A DNA stretch of 26,703 nt, taken from positions 1 to 26,703 of the IMG/VR virus record IMGVR_UViG_3300035200_000037. One strand, given 5' to 3'. Both the position numbers and the translations under genes were made by a program. Numbering within the stretch: the stretch's first letter is position 1; each line of letters opens with the position of its first letter. The notes below the pieces were generated by a model, which saw only the letters and a list, made by a program, of their open reading frames with translations, was not told the DNA's origin and made no database searches. The DNA is from a virus. Its lineage: Duplodnaviria > Caudoviricetes. This document shows positions 126 through 25,191 of the stretch, piece after piece.

Positions 126-656
126 ATGACCAGTAACGAAGTCTCGTCAGCATCTCTCGGTACAGTTCGTCGTGTCCCGGTGGAGTCCCTGCATCTTGTG
201 GAGGGCAACCCGAGGCGCGGCCAGATTGAGGTCATTGCTGACTCACTCAAGGTGAACGGCCAGTACCGCCCCATCGTTGTGAACGAGGGATCGTTGACCG
301 GACGACCGATGGAAGTGCTGGCCGGGAACCACACTCTCCGGGCTGCTGTCCTGTTGGAGTGGGATGAGTTGGATGCGTTCATTGTCGATGTGGACGATGA
401 AGCAGCCAAGAGGATTGTCGCGGTGGATAACCGTTCCACCGACCTCGCCACCTACGACAACCAAGCGTTGCTCGACTTGTTGGAGTCCCTGCCCGACCTC
501 GGCGGCACCGGATACACGGACACAGACATCACCGCCCTGCAAGCATCAACCGCCGACCCGATTGTGCCCGACGACTTCCCCGGTTTCGACGAGGACATTG
601 ACACCAAATACTGCTGCCCGAAGTGCAACTATGAGTGGTCGGGTAAACCGAACTGA
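126..656 (+). CDS. ParB/sulfiredoxin-like N-terminal domain protein with C-terminal CxxC knuckle
   Basis: NPR, 'SLKVNGQYRPIVVN', 'VLAGNHTLRAA' and 'VDNR' match the ParB_N/Srx pattern; C-terminal 'CCPKCNYEW'; GAGGA RBS upstream. Confidence 0.85.
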   Translation: MTSNEVSSASLGTVRRVPVESLHLVEGNPRRGQIEVIADSLKVNGQYRPIVVNEGSLTGRPMEVLAGNHTLRAAVLLEWDELDAFIVDVDDEAAKRIVAVDNRSTDLATYDNQALLDLLESLPDLGGTGYTDTDITALQASTADPIVPDDFPGFDEDIDTKYCCPKCNYEWSGKPN

Positions 657-814
657 TGCCGGATGGTCAATGGGGCCCGGTCATCAACTGTGGAGTGTAT
701 CGGCGTTGTTCCTGCGGCCACTACCTCTTGAAACATGAGCCGTCCGGTCGCTGCGCTGCCACAGATGCGCTGGTCAGATGTTCATGCAAAGAGTTAGACC
801 TTGTTGATGAGTAA
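656..814 (+). CDS. Small Cys/His-rich putative zinc-binding protein (52 aa), absent from the ORF track
   Basis: Hand translation: MPDGQWGPVINCGVYRRCSCGHYLLKHEPSGRCAATDALVRCSCKELDLVDE*. Starts in a TGATG overlap with the ParB stop and ends overlapping the MTase start (ATGAGTAA), filling the gap exactly. Motif CxCGHx4Hx5Cx8CxC. Confidence 0.75.
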   Translation: MPDGQWGPVINCGVYRRCSCGHYLLKHEPSGRCAATDALVRCSCKELDLVDE

Positions 815-1988
815 ACCCCCGTACCACGTTCCCACCATGGACGAGATACGGGCGGTGGACAAACCGGGACTGATCGCGGCTTCCACCTTCTCCGGGTGCG
901 GCGGCTCATCACTCGGCTATCGCATGGCCGGGTTTGAGGTCAGGTACGCCAACGAGTTCATCGAAGCAGCTAGGGACACCTACGCAGCGAACATGGAACC
1001 GTACACCTACCTCGACGGCAGAGACATTCGTGACGTGAAAGGCACGGAGATACTTGAACATTGCGGAGGCGACGTTGACCTACTTGACGGTTCACCCCCA
1101 TGTTCCGACTTCTCCACCAGCGGCAAACGCGAAGCCGGATGGGGCAAGGTCAAGGAATACTCGGACGGCTCGCAACGTGTCGATGATCTGTTCTTTGAGT
1201 TTGCTCGTCTGGTTCGTGAAGTACAGCCCAAAACCTTCGTGGCCGAAAACGTGTCCGGGCTGGTCAAGGGCACAGCCAAAGGTTACTTCAAGTGGATACT
1301 GCGAGCGTTGCGCCAATCCGGGTACAGAGTCGAAGCGAAACTCTTGAACGCCGCATGGCTCGGCGTACCCCAAGCACGCCAACGACTAATCTTCGTCGGA
1401 GTACGCGAGGATCAACCATTCAACCCAATCCACCCAACCCCACTGCCCTACCAGTACACCTGTCGTGAAGTGATCGGTAACGATGCACCGCTACTCATCA
1501 TCCACGATCCACGCGGCATCTATCCAGTGCGGAACATGACCGACGTTCCTGCGATGACGTTGACGACGCAGACGGCAGCCCATGTTCAGGTGTGGGGTGA
1601 GGACAATGTTGAGGTTGACCCGGAAACCGGGGAGTCCATCGTGTTCCGCAGCTACGGCTTGTATGAAACGTGGAAACGGTTGAAGGTTGGTACAGGGGCG
1701 CAGGAGTCCAGGTTCAACCTGAAACGCACTTCACCGGACAAACCGTGTTTGACCATCTTGCAGACGGGTGGGCATCCTGGTGCCGCGTCGGTGACGCATT
1801 GGGATCAACCACGCAAGTTCACTTTGGCAGAGCTACGCAGACTGTCGGCGTTCCCTGACGACTTCGTGTTGACCGGAACGTATGAACAGAGGTACGAACG
1901 TATCGGTCGCGCTGTACCCCCGGTGATGATGTACCACGTCGCCGCAGGGATACGAGACAAACTGGTGGAGGCACGAAACAATGCCTGA
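807..1988 (+). CDS. DNA cytosine-C5 methyltransferase-fold enzyme; predicted cytosine C5-carboxymethyltransferase
   Basis: Motif I FSGCGG, motif IV GSPPCSDFS (catalytic Cys intact), motif VI ENV, motif VIII PQARQR, motif IX 'RKFTLAELRRLSAFPDDF', and motif X 'IGRAVPP' where 'GNAV/GNSV' is canonical. ATG 807 preferred over TTG 801 because of the 8-nt overlap with the upstream ORF. Confidence 0.92.
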   Translation: MSKPPYHVPTMDEIRAVDKPGLIAASTFSGCGGSSLGYRMAGFEVRYANEFIEAARDTYAANMEPYTYLDGRDIRDVKGTEILEHCGGDVDLLDGSPPCSDFSTSGKREAGWGKVKEYSDGSQRVDDLFFEFARLVREVQPKTFVAENVSGLVKGTAKGYFKWILRALRQSGYRVEAKLLNAAWLGVPQARQRLIFVGVREDQPFNPIHPTPLPYQYTCREVIGNDAPLLIIHDPRGIYPVRNMTDVPAMTLTTQTAAHVQVWGEDNVEVDPETGESIVFRSYGLYETWKRLKVGTGAQESRFNLKRTSPDKPCLTILQTGGHPGAASVTHWDQPRKFTLAELRRLSAFPDDFVLTGTYEQRYERIGRAVPPVMMYHVAAGIRDKLVEARNNA

Positions 1989-2769
1989 CGTGCGGAAAGT
2001 GTTACTAGCAGAGGTAGGACAAATCCCTGGTGATGAGGTTGCTGTTCTTCTATCTGGTGGCATTGACAGCTTGGCCTGTGGACTGGCTGCGAGACAGCTT
2101 GGAAAGAAAGTGGTTTCGTACAGTTTCACGTTAAACGGTCACGTTTCGACCGACTTCCAGGGTGCCCGGATGGTGTCTCGTGAGTTCGGGTTTGAGTTCC
2201 GTCCGGTCATCTTGCCCACTGATATGCCGTCGCTGGTGCGCGATCTGATGGACTTGGCTGACCTGGGCGCAAAGTCGAAAACAGATTATGAGTGTGGCTG
2301 GCCTGTTCTCCGGGCGATACGCCAGGTCGGTGAGCCAGCGATCATCACCGGGCATGGGGCAGACGGACACTTCTGCATATCGAAGAAGGGCATGATCCAC
2401 TACAAGGACACCCGGATAGACGAGTTCCGGCAAGGCTTGTTCAGCAACCCCCGCTACGCCCAACAAGAGTTGCTGCGTGCGGAAACCTCGAGGTTGGGCA
2501 AGTCCCTGTGCTTGCCGTTCCTGTCTGATGCGATGGTGAAAGAGTTTGCTGGCACGTCCTGGTCTGATGTGAACAAGCCGAAACAGAAACAACCGATCCT
2601 TGATGCGTTCCCGAAAGAGTTCGCCCGAGTGAAAGTGCGCCCCCACGTCAACTTGCAGCTTGGTGACTCCGGTATCGCCCAACACTTCTACAAGTTGTTG
2701 GACACCGACCTCAACACAGGTGGCTTCAAGACCCCGGTGGGGGTTTACAACAGGTTGACCAATGCCTGA
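1981..2769 (+). CDS. Asparagine-synthetase-like ATP pyrophosphatase (synthetase domain only); predicted amide ligase
   Basis: PP-loop 'VLLSGGIDS', 'ITGHGADGHF' (cf. AsnB SGEGADE.F) and 'LPFLS' (cf. vPFLD). At 262 aa it has no N-terminal Ntn glutaminase domain. Confidence 0.82.
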   Translation: MPDVRKVLLAEVGQIPGDEVAVLLSGGIDSLACGLAARQLGKKVVSYSFTLNGHVSTDFQGARMVSREFGFEFRPVILPTDMPSLVRDLMDLADLGAKSKTDYECGWPVLRAIRQVGEPAIITGHGADGHFCISKKGMIHYKDTRIDEFRQGLFSNPRYAQQELLRAETSRLGKSLCLPFLSDAMVKEFAGTSWSDVNKPKQKQPILDAFPKEFARVKVRPHVNLQLGDSGIAQHFYKLLDTDLNTGGFKTPVGVYNRLTNA

Positions 2770-3475
2770 CATTGCCGACAGCTTCAACACTGGTGGTTGG
2801 GAGTTCACCCCCGAAGTTACTGCGGTGTTCGATGACCACGTTCGGGCTTCGGTGCCCTACTACGACGACATACAGCAGATGGTTGCTGAGTTCTCGGACT
2901 GGCTGCTACCCGATAACAGTCTGTTCGTTGACCTGGGTGCATCAACGTGCACCACCTTGGAAACCATTTGTGCCCGACACCCCGGCAGAAGGTTCCGTGC
3001 CGAACTGTACGACGAGGAACCTTCCATGCTCGACAAAGCAAAAGACAAGGTGGCGGGGCTGAATGTCCTGTCAACCTTCCATGTGCAACGCCTACAGCAG
3101 CCGTTCAAGCACAAAGACGCAGACCTCACGGTCTCCCTGTTCACGTTGCAGTTCCTACGAGAACCAGACCGCTTGGCTGTACTCACCGAAGCCCGACGCT
3201 GCGCCGCACCCAACGGGGCGATCATCCTCGCAGAGAAGATACGACCGGAACACCCCTTGCTCGCTGAGATAGCAATGGACGCATCACACGACTTCAAGGC
3301 CAAGTGCGGCCTGAACGACACCGCTATCCGGTCGAAAGCTCGTGCGTTGCGCGGTGTACTGATGCCCCAACCACTGCCTACACTGATGGCAGAGCTATTC
3401 AAGGCCGGGTGGAACAACGCAGACGTGGTGTTCCGCTGGCACCAATGGGTGATTGTGATTGGGTTCGCTAGATGA
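2762..3475 (+). CDS. cmoA: CmoA-like carboxy-S-adenosyl-L-methionine synthase (class I SAM-MTase fold)
   Basis: Collinear with E. coli CmoA motifs as I recall them: WEFTPEVTAVFDDHVRASVPYY ([22 protein letters not shown]), DLGAS (DLGCS), FTLQFL (identical), ILAEK (VLSEK), HDFK (identical), KAGW (NAGF). Confidence 0.85.
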   Translation: MPDIADSFNTGGWEFTPEVTAVFDDHVRASVPYYDDIQQMVAEFSDWLLPDNSLFVDLGASTCTTLETICARHPGRRFRAELYDEEPSMLDKAKDKVAGLNVLSTFHVQRLQQPFKHKDADLTVSLFTLQFLREPDRLAVLTEARRCAAPNGAIILAEKIRPEHPLLAEIAMDASHDFKAKCGLNDTAIRSKARALRGVLMPQPLPTLMAELFKAGWNNADVVFRWHQWVIVIGFAR

Positions 3476-3849
3476 CAGACGACAAGGGACACAAAGCCCT
3501 ACAGCTGTTCCTCGCTGGGGTGACGTATTCACAGATCGCGGAAACCATCGACGTTCCGTTAGCCCAGGTAGACGAGTTAGTGGCTGCCGAGTTCGCGGTG
3601 ACACAGCAACGCCGAAAGGCGTTGATAGAAGAAGCATCTGCGGTTCACCAGGAACGTACTGAGGCGTTGTTTCGGGCGCATTGGGGGCCAGCACTCCGGG
3701 GTGACCACAAGAGCGCAGAGATATGTCGCCGCATCCTTGACCGTCAGGGTGCCCAACTGTTCTACGGTGAAGCCCCAACAATGGAAGGTGATGCGGTCGA
3801 TGAGATTGCGACACGGAGGGCTGCTCGCCGTGCGGGGCGTGCCGGGTAG
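3472..3849 (+). CDS. terS: Terminase small subunit (HTH-containing)
   Basis: N-terminal HTH 'ALQLFLAGVTYSQIAETIDV'; C-terminal 'DAVDEIATRRAARRA' typical of actinophage TerS; directly upstream of TerL; ATGA overlap with cmoA. Confidence 0.75.
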   Translation: MTDDKGHKALQLFLAGVTYSQIAETIDVPLAQVDELVAAEFAVTQQRRKALIEEASAVHQERTEALFRAHWGPALRGDHKSAEICRRILDRQGAQLFYGEAPTMEGDAVDEIATRRAARRAGRAG

Positions 3850-9989: not shown

Positions 9990-10060
9990 CAACTGAACAC
10001 CACAACTGAATACCAACCCAATCCAGGCCGTCCCGCAATGCCTTGGAAGGGGCACACATC

Positions 10061-10714
10061 ATGGCTGACGCAACAAACATCATTGCGGCCACTATCAGTT
10101 CGGACGGCGCAAGTATCTACTGTGCCCCGACTGGTACCGCTGCACCCAACGCACCGACCGTGGAGCCGGATGCCGCGTGGATCGAACTCGGCTGGGTCAG
10201 CGAGGACGGTGTCACCAACGGCATCCAGCGCGACACCACCAAGCACTACGCCTGGGGTGGTTCCGTGGTCAAGACCACGCAGGACAAGTACACCGAAACC
10301 TTCAAGTTCGCGCTGTTGGAGTCCAGCCGTGAGGTTCTGGAACTCGTTTTCGGCAAGGACAACGTGACCGGGACGGGCGACAACATCCTGGTGGATCACA
10401 CCGAGAAGATGCTGGATCGCCAGTCATTCCTCATCGACTTCGTGGACGGTGACCGCATCGGTCGCCACTACATCAAGGACGGCATGGTCACCGAGGTCGG
10501 CGATCTGGTCTACACCCACAAGGGTCTGCTGCAGTATGAGCTGACCGTGGACGTTTACAAGCCTGCCGATGGTACGGCTGCGGTGGAAACCTCCTTCGCT
10601 AAGGCTCCTGCTTCTGGCGGCACCGCCCAGCAGGGAGCCACTGGTGGTGGGGCTGACGCCGGATACCAGGCACCGACCACCGCCAACGTCCAGGTCAAGG
10701 CCAAAGGCGCATAA
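10061..10714 (+). CDS. Major tail (tube) protein
   Basis: 'APTGT', 'LGWVSEDGV', 'AWGG.VV', 'F.LLES', 'VTEVGDLVY', 'YELTV'; GGAAGGGG RBS favours ATG 10061. Confidence 0.92.
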   Translation: MADATNIIAATISSDGASIYCAPTGTAAPNAPTVEPDAAWIELGWVSEDGVTNGIQRDTTKHYAWGGSVVKTTQDKYTETFKFALLESSREVLELVFGKDNVTGTGDNILVDHTEKMLDRQSFLIDFVDGDRIGRHYIKDGMVTEVGDLVYTHKGLLQYELTVDVYKPADGTAAVETSFAKAPASGGTAQQGATGGGADAGYQAPTTANVQVKAKGA

Positions 10715-25152: not shown

Positions 25153-25191
25153 GAACCGCCCCAAGCATGGACAGGATGCTTGGGGCGGTTC
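25153..25191 (+). terminator. 16-bp hairpin, probable terminator after the secreted-protein pair
   Basis: GAACCGCCCCAAGCAT / ATGCTTGGGGCGGTTC with loop GGACAGG; weak U-tract. Confidence 0.7.

What the first reader, a model, noticed from the sequence alone, without database searches (positions are those of the whole stretch)
126..3475. Predicted carboxy-SAM-dependent DNA hypermodification operon (5-carboxymethylcytosine, then amide) in an actinophage
Seen: five overlapping genes encoding ParB-like, small Zn protein, C5-MTase fold, AsnB-like synthetase domain and CmoA-like proteins. Established: CmoA converts SAM plus prephenate to carboxy-SAM, normally for tRNA cmo5U via CmoB; C5-MTases can transfer carboxymethyl from Cx-SAM when a basic residue sits in the cofactor pocket; AsnB-type synthetases adenylate a carboxylate and form an amide. 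Inference: CmoA makes Cx-SAM, the MTase writes 5-carboxymethyl-C on DNA, and the ligase amidates it with ammonia or an amine, giving a bulky anti-restriction base. No CmoB or tRNA is in the window, so DNA is the likely sink. I recall a recent report of a CmoA plus carboxymethyltransferase plus amide ligase system in a cyanophage; that is unverified memory, so the novelty may lie in the host lineage, ligase type and end product rather than the core chemistry.
Basis: partly seen in the sequence, partly recalled or inferred. Interest (0 to 1): 0.93.

Follow-up and report, generated by a model that had tools for sequence, protein, structure and literature searches.

The report
Mycobacteriophage-like carboxymethylcytosine DNA-modification cassette
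This phage carries three overlapping genes matching an enzyme set published in December 2025, so it likely adds a carboxymethyl group to cytosines in its own DNA and likely caps it with glycine or a similar amino acid; the system is already known, and the only local novelty is that close relatives hold a different capping enzyme, or none, in the same slot.

Summary

- The C5 enzyme's best solved relative is CmoX (8YF3, E 1.9e-63). It keeps SPPC and the carboxylate-binding Arg (R368 = R350).
- The ligase is a short CmoY-type protein (37% identity, no glutaminase domain).
- The CmoA homologue lacks E. coli Arg199, but so does the verified phage enzyme.
- The predicted base is 5-(glycyl)carboxymethylcytosine. 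The amine and the target motif are untested.

Corrections: ammonia is the less likely amine, and the 52-aa Cys/His gene is a passenger.

Local points:
- The virion genes are mycobacteriophage-like, and the cassette runs straight into the terminase genes.
- Among 43 related loci the ligase slot holds a glutaminase-fused ligase (24), nothing (15), a non-C5 transferase arrangement (3) or is cut off (1). None has this short ligase.
- Six-base palindromes are avoided very strongly (51 observed, 424 expected).

This scan has noted the same system before on other DNA. Verdict: a new member of a known kind.

The parts
126..656 (+). ParB-N domain protein, 176 aa, ending in a CxxC knuckle (YCCPKCNY). 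Common companion of CmoX; role unknown, possibly steers the enzymes to DNA being packaged (literature proposal, untested).
   Evidence: Pfam PF02195 E 6e-07; PHROG 723 E 1.2e-46; 66-68% identical orthologues lead the cassette in L011-L013
656..814 (+). 52-aa Cys/His-rich small protein; a passenger in a variable slot, not part of the conserved system
   Evidence: Four homologues of 52-58 aa, 43-85% identical; no match in 50,697 phage records; absent from L011-L013; strain contigs turn unlike the window at 674 and 813 (loose ends)
807..1988 (+). CmoX-type cytosine-C5 carboxymethyltransferase, 393 aa: F28, E50, F51, D73, S96-P-P-C99, R368
   Evidence: Best PDB hit 8YF3, E 1.9e-63; next best M.HaeIII, E 8e-25; residues map to SpCmoX F25, E47, F48, D69, C98, R350
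1981..2769 (+). Short CmoY-type ATP-dependent amide ligase, 262 aa, SGGIDS loop, no glutaminase domain
   Evidence: 37% identical to SpCmoY over 243 aa, E 1e-48; model pLDDT 95.5, nearest folds beta-lactam synthetase and AsnB synthetase domains; 33 conserved columns shared with the SpCmoY group, 4 residue differences
2762..3475 (+). CmoA-type carboxy-SAM synthase, 237 aa
   Evidence: TIGR00740 E 1.3e-30; PDB 4GEK E 1.4e-20; top six fold hits are CmoA/YecO chains, TM 0.84-0.87; Y34, D57, G59, S61, D84, F131, E158, K159, K179, K192 kept; R199 replaced as in SpCmoA
3472..3849 (+). HTH protein, small terminase by position (inferred); its start overlaps the cmoA stop
   Evidence: Pfam HTH_23 E 0.005, under cut-off; 54-58% orthologues in the same place in L011-L014
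3852..5282 (+). Large terminase, start of the head and tail gene block (context)
   Evidence: Pfam TerL_ATPase; PHROG 9 E 7.7e-79; 44-46% to Brevibacterium and Mycobacterium phages

Best explanation
The locus encodes homologues of the three CmoA-CmoX-CmoY enzymes, and it likely converts some cytosines of the phage DNA to 5-carboxymethylcytosine and then likely to its glycine amide. Predicted steps, each shown for the S-B43 enzymes and inferred here: (1) CmoA makes carboxy-SAM from host SAM and prephenate. (2) CmoX uses Cys99 to attack C6 of a cytosine in double-stranded DNA, and Arg368 holds the carboxylate while the carboxymethyl group moves to C5. [quoted passage not shown] Protection from restriction is the likely purpose. 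The target motif is not known; GC is shown only for S-B43.
For: CmoX meets both criteria the paper used to call a CmoX, SPPC and the R350-equivalent Arg. All 107 loci whose MTase C-terminus aligned to this one (window included) have Arg there. Of 79 loci found through the short ligase, 62 hold both CmoX- and CmoA-like genes, 10 CmoA only, 5 CmoX only and 2 neither. The ligase joins SpCmoY in one network up to alignment score 54, and none of 23 glutaminase-fused ligases joins at any threshold tried. The CmoA homologue folds like E. coli CmoA. Verified SpCmoA also lacks R199 and N132, also has Arg four residues later, and also scores under the TIGR00740 cut-off (115.6 bits). Of 16 listed strain differences in the three enzyme genes, 15 are synonymous (only the 40 best-supported of 180 rows were shown). 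CmoB passed its cut-off in 0 of 5 actinobacterial genomes that carry related loci.
Against: No activity was measured. The CmoA homologue is only 26% identical to SpCmoA, lacks the Arg199 that binds the carboxylate in E. coli CmoA, and is under the family cut-off. The ligase and SpCmoY fall into separate groups at score 56, the paper's threshold, in samples of 227 and 347 sequences. The two groups differ at conserved positions Q161/G, D229/gap, G137/A and S-or-T251/R, so the amine may differ. Six-base palindromes are avoided more strongly than in all 100 comparison loci, including those containing GC (18 of 196 expected) or CG (7 of 224), which sits badly with blanket protection. S-B43 also avoids GC-containing palindromes (0.56), which weakens this objection. 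Late expression rests on gene layout alone; no promoter-like site was found.
Confidence: 0.68

Rival explanations
1. The first two steps are the same, but this ligase subfamily joins a different amine (another amino acid or a small amine), giving a base not yet described.
For: Only 37% identity to SpCmoY. Separate groups at scores 56 and above, with fixed differences Q161/G and D229/gap, and a long, fully supported branch between them. Q161 maps, through the L011 ligase, to the Asp of AsnB 'YDC'; that this position lies next to the incoming amine is recalled, and a search for a source found none. The paper itself expects other amines in other clusters.
Against: 33 strongly conserved columns are shared by both groups, including K100, T101, E104, C105, D128, S134, K135, K136, R150, N198, K203, H222, N224 and Q226. 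The groups link at score 54, just under the paper's threshold, in a sample much smaller than its 2,251 ligases. [quoted passage not shown]
Confidence: 0.2
2. The ligase uses free ammonia and makes 5-carbamoylmethylcytosine (about m/z 285, computed).
For: Its fold is the AsnB synthetase domain. The closest complete relative has a glutaminase-fused ligase in the same slot.
Against: There is no glutaminase domain, and no glutaminase gene among the 30 window ORFs scanned. It clusters with SpCmoY and never with the 23 fused ligases. It has the SKK-H motif of the short family where the fused ligases have a different segment.
Confidence: 0.04
3. The cassette is inactive or only partly active here, for example the CmoA makes no Cx-SAM, and the phage relies on avoiding restriction sites.
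For: CmoA lacks E. coli R199. Palindrome avoidance is extreme, 0.12 against 0.81 in the relative G001.
Against: All frames are intact and overlapping. Of 16 listed variants, 15 are synonymous. The A193/R197 pair is the commonest pair among 134 aligned CmoA proteins (55 rows), and verified SpCmoA has the E/R form. SpCmoX with Arg at this position did not accept SAM, so plain methylation is unlikely.
Confidence: 0.08

Closest known systems
CmoA-CmoX-CmoY system of Synechococcus phage S-B43 (Yang et al., Nat Commun 2025, PMC12783734; CmoX structure 8YF3)
   Same: The same three enzyme types in one overlapping cluster. CmoX 37-41% identical with all named cofactor residues; short ligase 37% identical without glutaminase; CmoA with the same departures from E. 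coli CmoA.
   Different: Order is ParB-X-Y-A here and A-Y-X in S-B43. The cassette lies directly before the terminase genes here, and near a primase-helicase gene in S-B43. Virion genes here are mycobacteriophage-like. The CmoX variable region differs, so the GC target may not carry over. The ligase belongs to a different subgroup.
Glutaminase-fused ligase cassettes of actinophages (Streptomyces phage TurkishDelight genes 122-125; uncultured temperate phage G001/L011; the paper's second ligase cluster, predicted to use ammonia and not obtained soluble)
   Same: Order ParB-CmoX-ligase-CmoA next to the terminase genes. CmoX 58-63% and CmoA 54-78% identical.
   Different: Their ligase is 458-466 aa with a GATase domain and matches this one over at most 126 aa at 29%. 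That TurkishDelight gp124 is the paper's A0A7T0Q3R0 was not established.
E. coli CmoA/CmoB tRNA cmo5U pathway
   Same: CmoA fold and most SAM-binding residues.
   Different: Arg199 and Asn132 are replaced. No CmoB in the window; the partner is a DNA C5 enzyme.
ParB-terminase DNA-modification loci of phages (passages in PMC4738411 and PMC8256090)
   Same: A ParB gene plus a DNA-modifying enzyme beside the terminase, proposed to modify DNA during packaging.
   Different: Those passages concern adenine methylases and C5-MT/TET clusters, and the link to packaging is a proposal there too.

Membership tests
CmoX (cytosine-C5 carboxymethyltransferase) | C5-MTase homologue with the SPPC motif | tested here: met
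   S96-P97-P98-C99 = SpCmoX S95-C98
CmoX (cytosine-C5 carboxymethyltransferase) | Arg at the R350 position (Asn in SAM-using enzymes) | tested here: met
   GRAVPP, R368, against GRMVPP in 8YF3 and GNAVP in M.HaeIII
CmoX (cytosine-C5 carboxymethyltransferase) | Transfers carboxymethyl from Cx-SAM to DNA cytosine and does not use SAM | not testable with these tools
   Needs LC-MS
CmoX (cytosine-C5 carboxymethyltransferase) | GC target motif, as in S-B43 | tested here: inconclusive
   Word counts spare no class of palindrome; GC odds ratio 0.89, CG 0.99
Phage CmoA (Cx-SAM synthase) | CmoA fold, nearest to CmoA among solved structures | tested here: met
   Top six Foldseek hits are CmoA/YecO chains, TM 0.84-0.87; top three sequence hits likewise
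Bacterial CmoA (TIGR00740 equivalog) | Arg199 salt bridge to the carboxylate, and a score over the curated cut-off | tested here: not met
   Ala193; 106.9 of 193.3 bits. Verified SpCmoA fails both as well (Glu188, 115.6 bits). It is therefore not filed as a bacterial CmoA, and this does not count against activity.
Phage CmoA (Cx-SAM synthase) | Makes Cx-SAM from SAM and prephenate | not testable with these tools
   Needs an enzyme assay
CmoY (short ATP-dependent glycine ligase) | Synthetase domain only, no glutamine amidotransferase domain | tested here: met
   262 aa, PF00733 without GATase_6/7; contrast L011 and TurkishDelight
CmoY (short ATP-dependent glycine ligase) | Same similarity-network cluster as SpCmoY at the paper's threshold (1e-56) | tested here: inconclusive
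   Linked at my alignment scores 40-54, split at 56, among 347 sequences; the paper used 2,251 and its exact scoring was not reproduced
CmoY (short ATP-dependent glycine ligase) | Glycine-pocket residues of the paper's Supplementary Fig. 8 | tested here: inconclusive
   The figure is a picture and the residues are not named in the text held. As a proxy, 33 conserved columns are shared and 4 residues differ.
CmoA-CmoX-CmoY system | The three genes co-occur, without cmoB | tested here: met
   Adjacent and overlapping here; 62 of 79 short-ligase loci hold both partners; no CmoB among the window ORFs scanned
CmoA-CmoX-CmoY system | Modified base present in virion DNA | not testable with these tools
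   Uncultured phage; only assembled contigs were listed

The most novel reading that the evidence does not exclude
This ligase subfamily (Q161, D229) joins an amine other than glycine, so the phage DNA holds an undescribed cytosine amide. Together with its close relatives, which share the same CmoX/CmoA/terminase backbone but carry a glutaminase-fused ligase (L011) or no ligase (L012, L013), it would form a natural swap series. Exchanging one gene would switch the base between an acid, a primary amide and an aminoacyl amide in mycobacteriophage-like phages, in a cassette coupled to DNA packaging.
Probability: 0.2. Interest if true: 0.55.

Novelty: new member of a known kind. Interest (0 to 1): 0.24.

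Why it matters
The core chemistry is published, so the discovery value is low. Three things remain useful. (1) Among 50,697 phage records the short ligase matched 58, none from an actinophage, so this extends the CmoY-type branch to a mycobacteriophage-like phage. (2) Close relatives with three states of the ligase slot give a ready set for testing how the cap changes the base and the protection. L011 also supplies another candidate for the glutaminase-fused class, which the authors could not obtain soluble. (3) If CmoX here reads a motif other than GC, or the ligase takes another amine, it adds a tool for enzymatic DNA labelling.

Tried and rejected
Inferring the target motif from word counts: no class of palindrome is spared, so no inference was possible.

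Recent arrival of the ligase: its GC3 (0.68) matches its neighbours (0.66, 0.68) and it holds 1 palindrome in 789 bp, like the rest. There is no sign of a recent transfer.

Direction of the swap: the CmoA tree puts the window with L011-L014 (support 100) inside a 44-row group that has no other short ligase (quick tree; the careful search did not finish). The CmoX tree has two short-ligase loci as a weakly supported sister group (0.83). Direction is left open; no clade test was run.

The small Cys/His gene as a subunit: rejected.

Loss of CmoA R199 as a sign of a dead enzyme: rejected with the SpCmoA control.

Promoter and terminator scans: at chance level. Rfam and repeat searches: nothing bearing on the cassette.

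No RNA holder listed among sequencing runs. The metagenome scan returned one locus, a duplicate.

Literature: searches returned PMC12783734 as the only listed paper on the natural system. One search (mycobacteriophage, DNA modification, cytosine, hypermodif) listed one general review, not read. One search found no source for the beta-lactam synthetase residue roles. Subscription journals are largely not covered. A term search of the paper's four supplements gave no hit for TurkishDelight, Streptomyces, actino, ParB or A0A7T0Q3R0, but the held source-data file is cut before the Fig. 8 sheets. No complex prediction was run.
Full report
OBSERVATION. The window is a 26,703-base virus record and is the whole of its assembly. 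Five + strand genes lie at 126-656, 656-814, 807-1988, 1981-2769 and 2762-3475. They overlap by 1, 8, 8 and 8 bases, and the last overlaps a 125-aa HTH gene by 4 bases; the large terminase, portal, capsid and tail genes follow. Family scans give ParB_N, no family, C5 DNA methylase, an asparagine-synthase domain without glutaminase, and CmoA-like. The layout is not an assembly error. An IMG/VR contig matches 9.4 kb at 99.6%. Contigs from runs of three studies bridge the CmoX/CmoY junction, and two runs of one study bridge CmoY/CmoA; one of these may be the source sample.

THE KNOWN SYSTEM. Yang et al. 2025 (PMC12783734) describe this pathway in Synechococcus phage S-B43. I read parts 1-5 of 8 of the main text (abstract to methods), part 1 of 2 of supplement 1 and the first part of the source-data file, and term-searched all four supplements. 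SpCmoA makes carboxy-SAM. SpCmoX writes 5-carboxymethyl-C at GC, uses Arg350 to bind the carboxylate, and does not accept SAM. SpCmoY ligates glycine, and the glycine amide (m/z 343.1) was found in virion DNA. The authors list 5,615 CmoX candidates, with 4,257 CmoA, 2,251 ligases and 1,660 ParB genes. They describe a second ligase cluster with a glutaminase domain, predicted to use ammonia. Figures 8 and S8 are pictures that I could not see, so I do not know which residues they call the glycine pocket or whether this phage is among their nodes. They searched IMG/VR, which holds a near-identical contig, so it may well be (inference).

THE C5 ENZYME. Its best solved relative is SpCmoX (8YF3, E 1.9e-63; next best M.HaeIII, 8e-25). 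F28, E50, F51, D73, C99 and R368 correspond to the paper's F25, E47, F48, D69, C98 and R350. Both published criteria for a CmoX are met. Arg stands at this position in 107 of 107 loci whose C-terminus aligned to the window's, the window included. Loci that did not align were not counted; one of them, Staphylococcus phage vB-SscS-F1, has Gly there. The variable region differs from SpCmoX and also among close relatives, so the target motif is open.

THE CmoA HOMOLOGUE. The model (pLDDT 93.4) matches E. coli CmoA and H. influenzae YecO best (TM 0.84-0.87). Passages of PMC3663124 name Arg199 as the key carboxylate-binding residue, and here it is Ala193. This looked like a failed test. The control removes most of its force: verified SpCmoA has Glu at that position, shares Leu for Asn132 and an Arg four residues on (R197 here, R192 there), and also falls under the TIGR00740 cut-off (115.6 against 106.9 here; cut-off 193.3). 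That the shifted Arg takes over the role is an inference. CmoB reached its cut-off in 0 of 5 actinobacterial genomes that carry related loci and in 1 of 14 control genomes, so a tRNA sink is unlikely in such hosts.

THE LIGASE. It has 262 residues and is 37% identical to SpCmoY. Its model (pLDDT 95.5) resembles the synthetase domains of beta-lactam synthetase and AsnB. In a network of 347 ligases it is linked to SpCmoY at alignment scores 40-54 and separate at 56 and above; none of the 23 glutaminase-fused ligases joins at any of these scores (the smaller set linked at 50 and split at 56). The window's group (154 sequences) and SpCmoY's group (132) share 33 columns conserved at 90% or more. 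They differ at four residue positions: G137/A, Q161/G, D229/gap and 251/R. Glycine is my best guess. Another amine is a real alternative, because Q161 maps to the AsnB 'YDC' aspartate, which I recall, without a source, as lying near the incoming amine.

CO-OCCURRENCE AND THE LIGASE SLOT. Of 79 loci fetched through the short ligase (L009 and L069-L146; one search kept the best 80 of 156, one being this phage), 62 hold both CmoX- and CmoA-like genes, 10 CmoA only, 5 CmoX only and 2 neither. I then took the loci whose CmoA is at least 40% identical, dropping the window, three copies of its twin contig and three duplicates, which left 43. Of these, 24 have a glutaminase-fused ligase, 15 have CmoX and CmoA with no ligase in the fetched flank, 3 have a non-C5 ParB-fused protein instead of CmoX, 1 is cut off, and none has a short ligase. 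These loci are not independent; several are related Nonomuraea and Streptosporangium loci. The closest four (CmoA 78-79%, terminase 65-67%) share the backbone. L011, in a complete 42.9-kb phage with a tyrosine integrase, has a 458-aa fused ligase. In L012 and L013 the CmoX frame runs straight into CmoA, and L014 is cut off. The best short-ligase matches with known context (55-56%) sit beside CmoA genes only 23-26% identical, where one is seen. The slot is therefore exchangeable. The direction is not settled, and composition shows no recent transfer. Two sister ligases exist (P0002 87%, P0003 71%). P0003 and a CmoA 81% identical to this one (P0122) both list a longest contig of 38,920 bases, which suggests a second member of this type, though I could not see that DNA.

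HOST AND TIMING. A minor tail protein is 64-67% identical to those of mycobacteriophages. The lysin is 73% identical over 58% of its length to that of Mycobacterium phage DarthPhader. The capsid is closest to an Arthrobacter phage (62%), and the terminase to Brevibacterium and Mycobacterium phages. A Mycobacterium-like host is likely but not shown. The same link to the terminase genes is seen in TurkishDelight, where the cassette ends the genome and gene 1 is an HTH protein followed by the terminase. Passages of PMC4738411 and PMC8256090 propose that ParB-terminase loci modify DNA during packaging. Late action on progeny DNA is inferred from layout only.

SELECTION AND THE SMALL GENE. Of 16 listed strain differences in the three enzyme genes, 15 are synonymous (40 of 180 rows were shown). 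The 52-aa gene has four small homologues but occurs in no fetched locus other than copies of this phage, and strain contigs diverge at its edges. It is a passenger.

A RESULT AGAINST SIMPLE PROTECTION. The window holds 51 six-base palindromes where 424 are expected (0.12), and 20 of the 35 types expected five or more times never occur. Five comparison phages give 0.52-0.88, and all 100 fetched loci of 7 kb or more give 0.20 or higher, median 0.69. Palindromes containing GC or CG are not spared. Passages of PMC4841201 tie palindrome avoidance to restriction. Modification may be partial or aimed at other defences. S-B43, where modification is proven, also avoids GC-containing palindromes (0.56), so the two measures can coexist.

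VERDICT. Earlier notes of this scan reached the same conclusion on six other windows, and a seventh note describes the non-C5 variant that I met in Gordonia phage Evaa. These are unchecked AI notes and were not used as support. This is a new member of a known kind, interest 0.24. The open questions worth a bench test are the amine and the motif.

Noticed in passing
L002:702-2237 with L002:3236-3952 (Gordonia phage Evaa genes 2 and 5); also L015, L021, L047, L048: CmoA sits beside a 511-aa ParB-fused protein that is annotated as a methyltransferase but lacks C5 motifs (it has DFGAG and SSVLNSVP), and no CmoX or ligase is nearby. It could be a second kind of carboxymethyltransferase; the 2025 paper says it found no N6/N4 candidates.
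   Followed up: partly
window:1-26703: Six-base palindromes are avoided very strongly, 51 observed against 424 expected, evenly along the window (0.15, 0.11, 0.10) and lower than in all 100 comparison loci. TGATCA is the main survivor (10 sites). Palindromes with a one-base gap are also low (0.65). Unexplained.
   Followed up: partly
L012:547-2374, L013:575-2405: Close relatives in which CmoX overlaps CmoA directly with no ligase; they would be predicted to leave the free acid 5-carboxymethyl-C unless a ligase lies elsewhere.
   Followed up: partly
L011:3632-5008 (G001): Glutaminase-fused ligase in the same slot, in a complete 42.9-kb phage with a tyrosine integrase; a candidate for the untested ammonia-using class.
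   Followed up: partly
L004:4816-5823 (Staphylococcus phage vB-SscS-F1): CmoA and a short ligase lie beside a C5 enzyme with Gly, neither Arg nor Asn, at the motif-X position (GGVIN). It would be missed by the paper's filter.
   Followed up: no
L105, L107, L108, L115, L116, L120; L006: Loci of about 260-kb phages with CmoA and a short ligase but no CmoX-like gene within 5 kb. Salmonella phage Sen-NF (L006) has the short ligase beside an oxygenase with neither partner in 4 kb. The carboxyl donor or substrate there is unclear.
   Followed up: no
L076, L078-L081, L083, L085, L086, L089, L096: A group of C5 enzymes with GGFPC in place of GSPPC, next to a short ligase and CmoA. The three C-termini printed (L076, L078, L085) carry the motif-X Arg, so the SPPC filter would miss them.
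   Followed up: no
L046:1093-3318; L135: The stop-to-stop frame holding CmoA in L046 is about 740 codons long, and the one holding the ligase in L135 about 590, so these may be fusions.
   Followed up: no
L060, L061, L063-L066, L068: CmoA-like genes (33-38%) in bacterial genomes (Thermoleophilia, Solirubrobacterales, others) with no CmoX or ligase detected in the flank; partner not examined.
   Followed up: no
window:24496-25139, 25153-25191: Two small Thr/Asn/Ala-rich genes of no Pfam family with hydrophobic N-termini follow the lysis genes, then a perfect 16-bp inverted repeat with a 7-base loop, terminator-like.
   Followed up: no
window:25462-25692 (-): 76-aa ORF that reads like an excisionase-type HTH protein by eye (recalled resemblance, not scanned); no integrase was seen among the ORFs scanned.
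   Followed up: no
window:10038-10714: Overlapping ORFs in two frames (10038-10367 and 10043-10714) upstream of the tape measure gene, where a tail chaperone frameshift is common; not checked.
   Followed up: no
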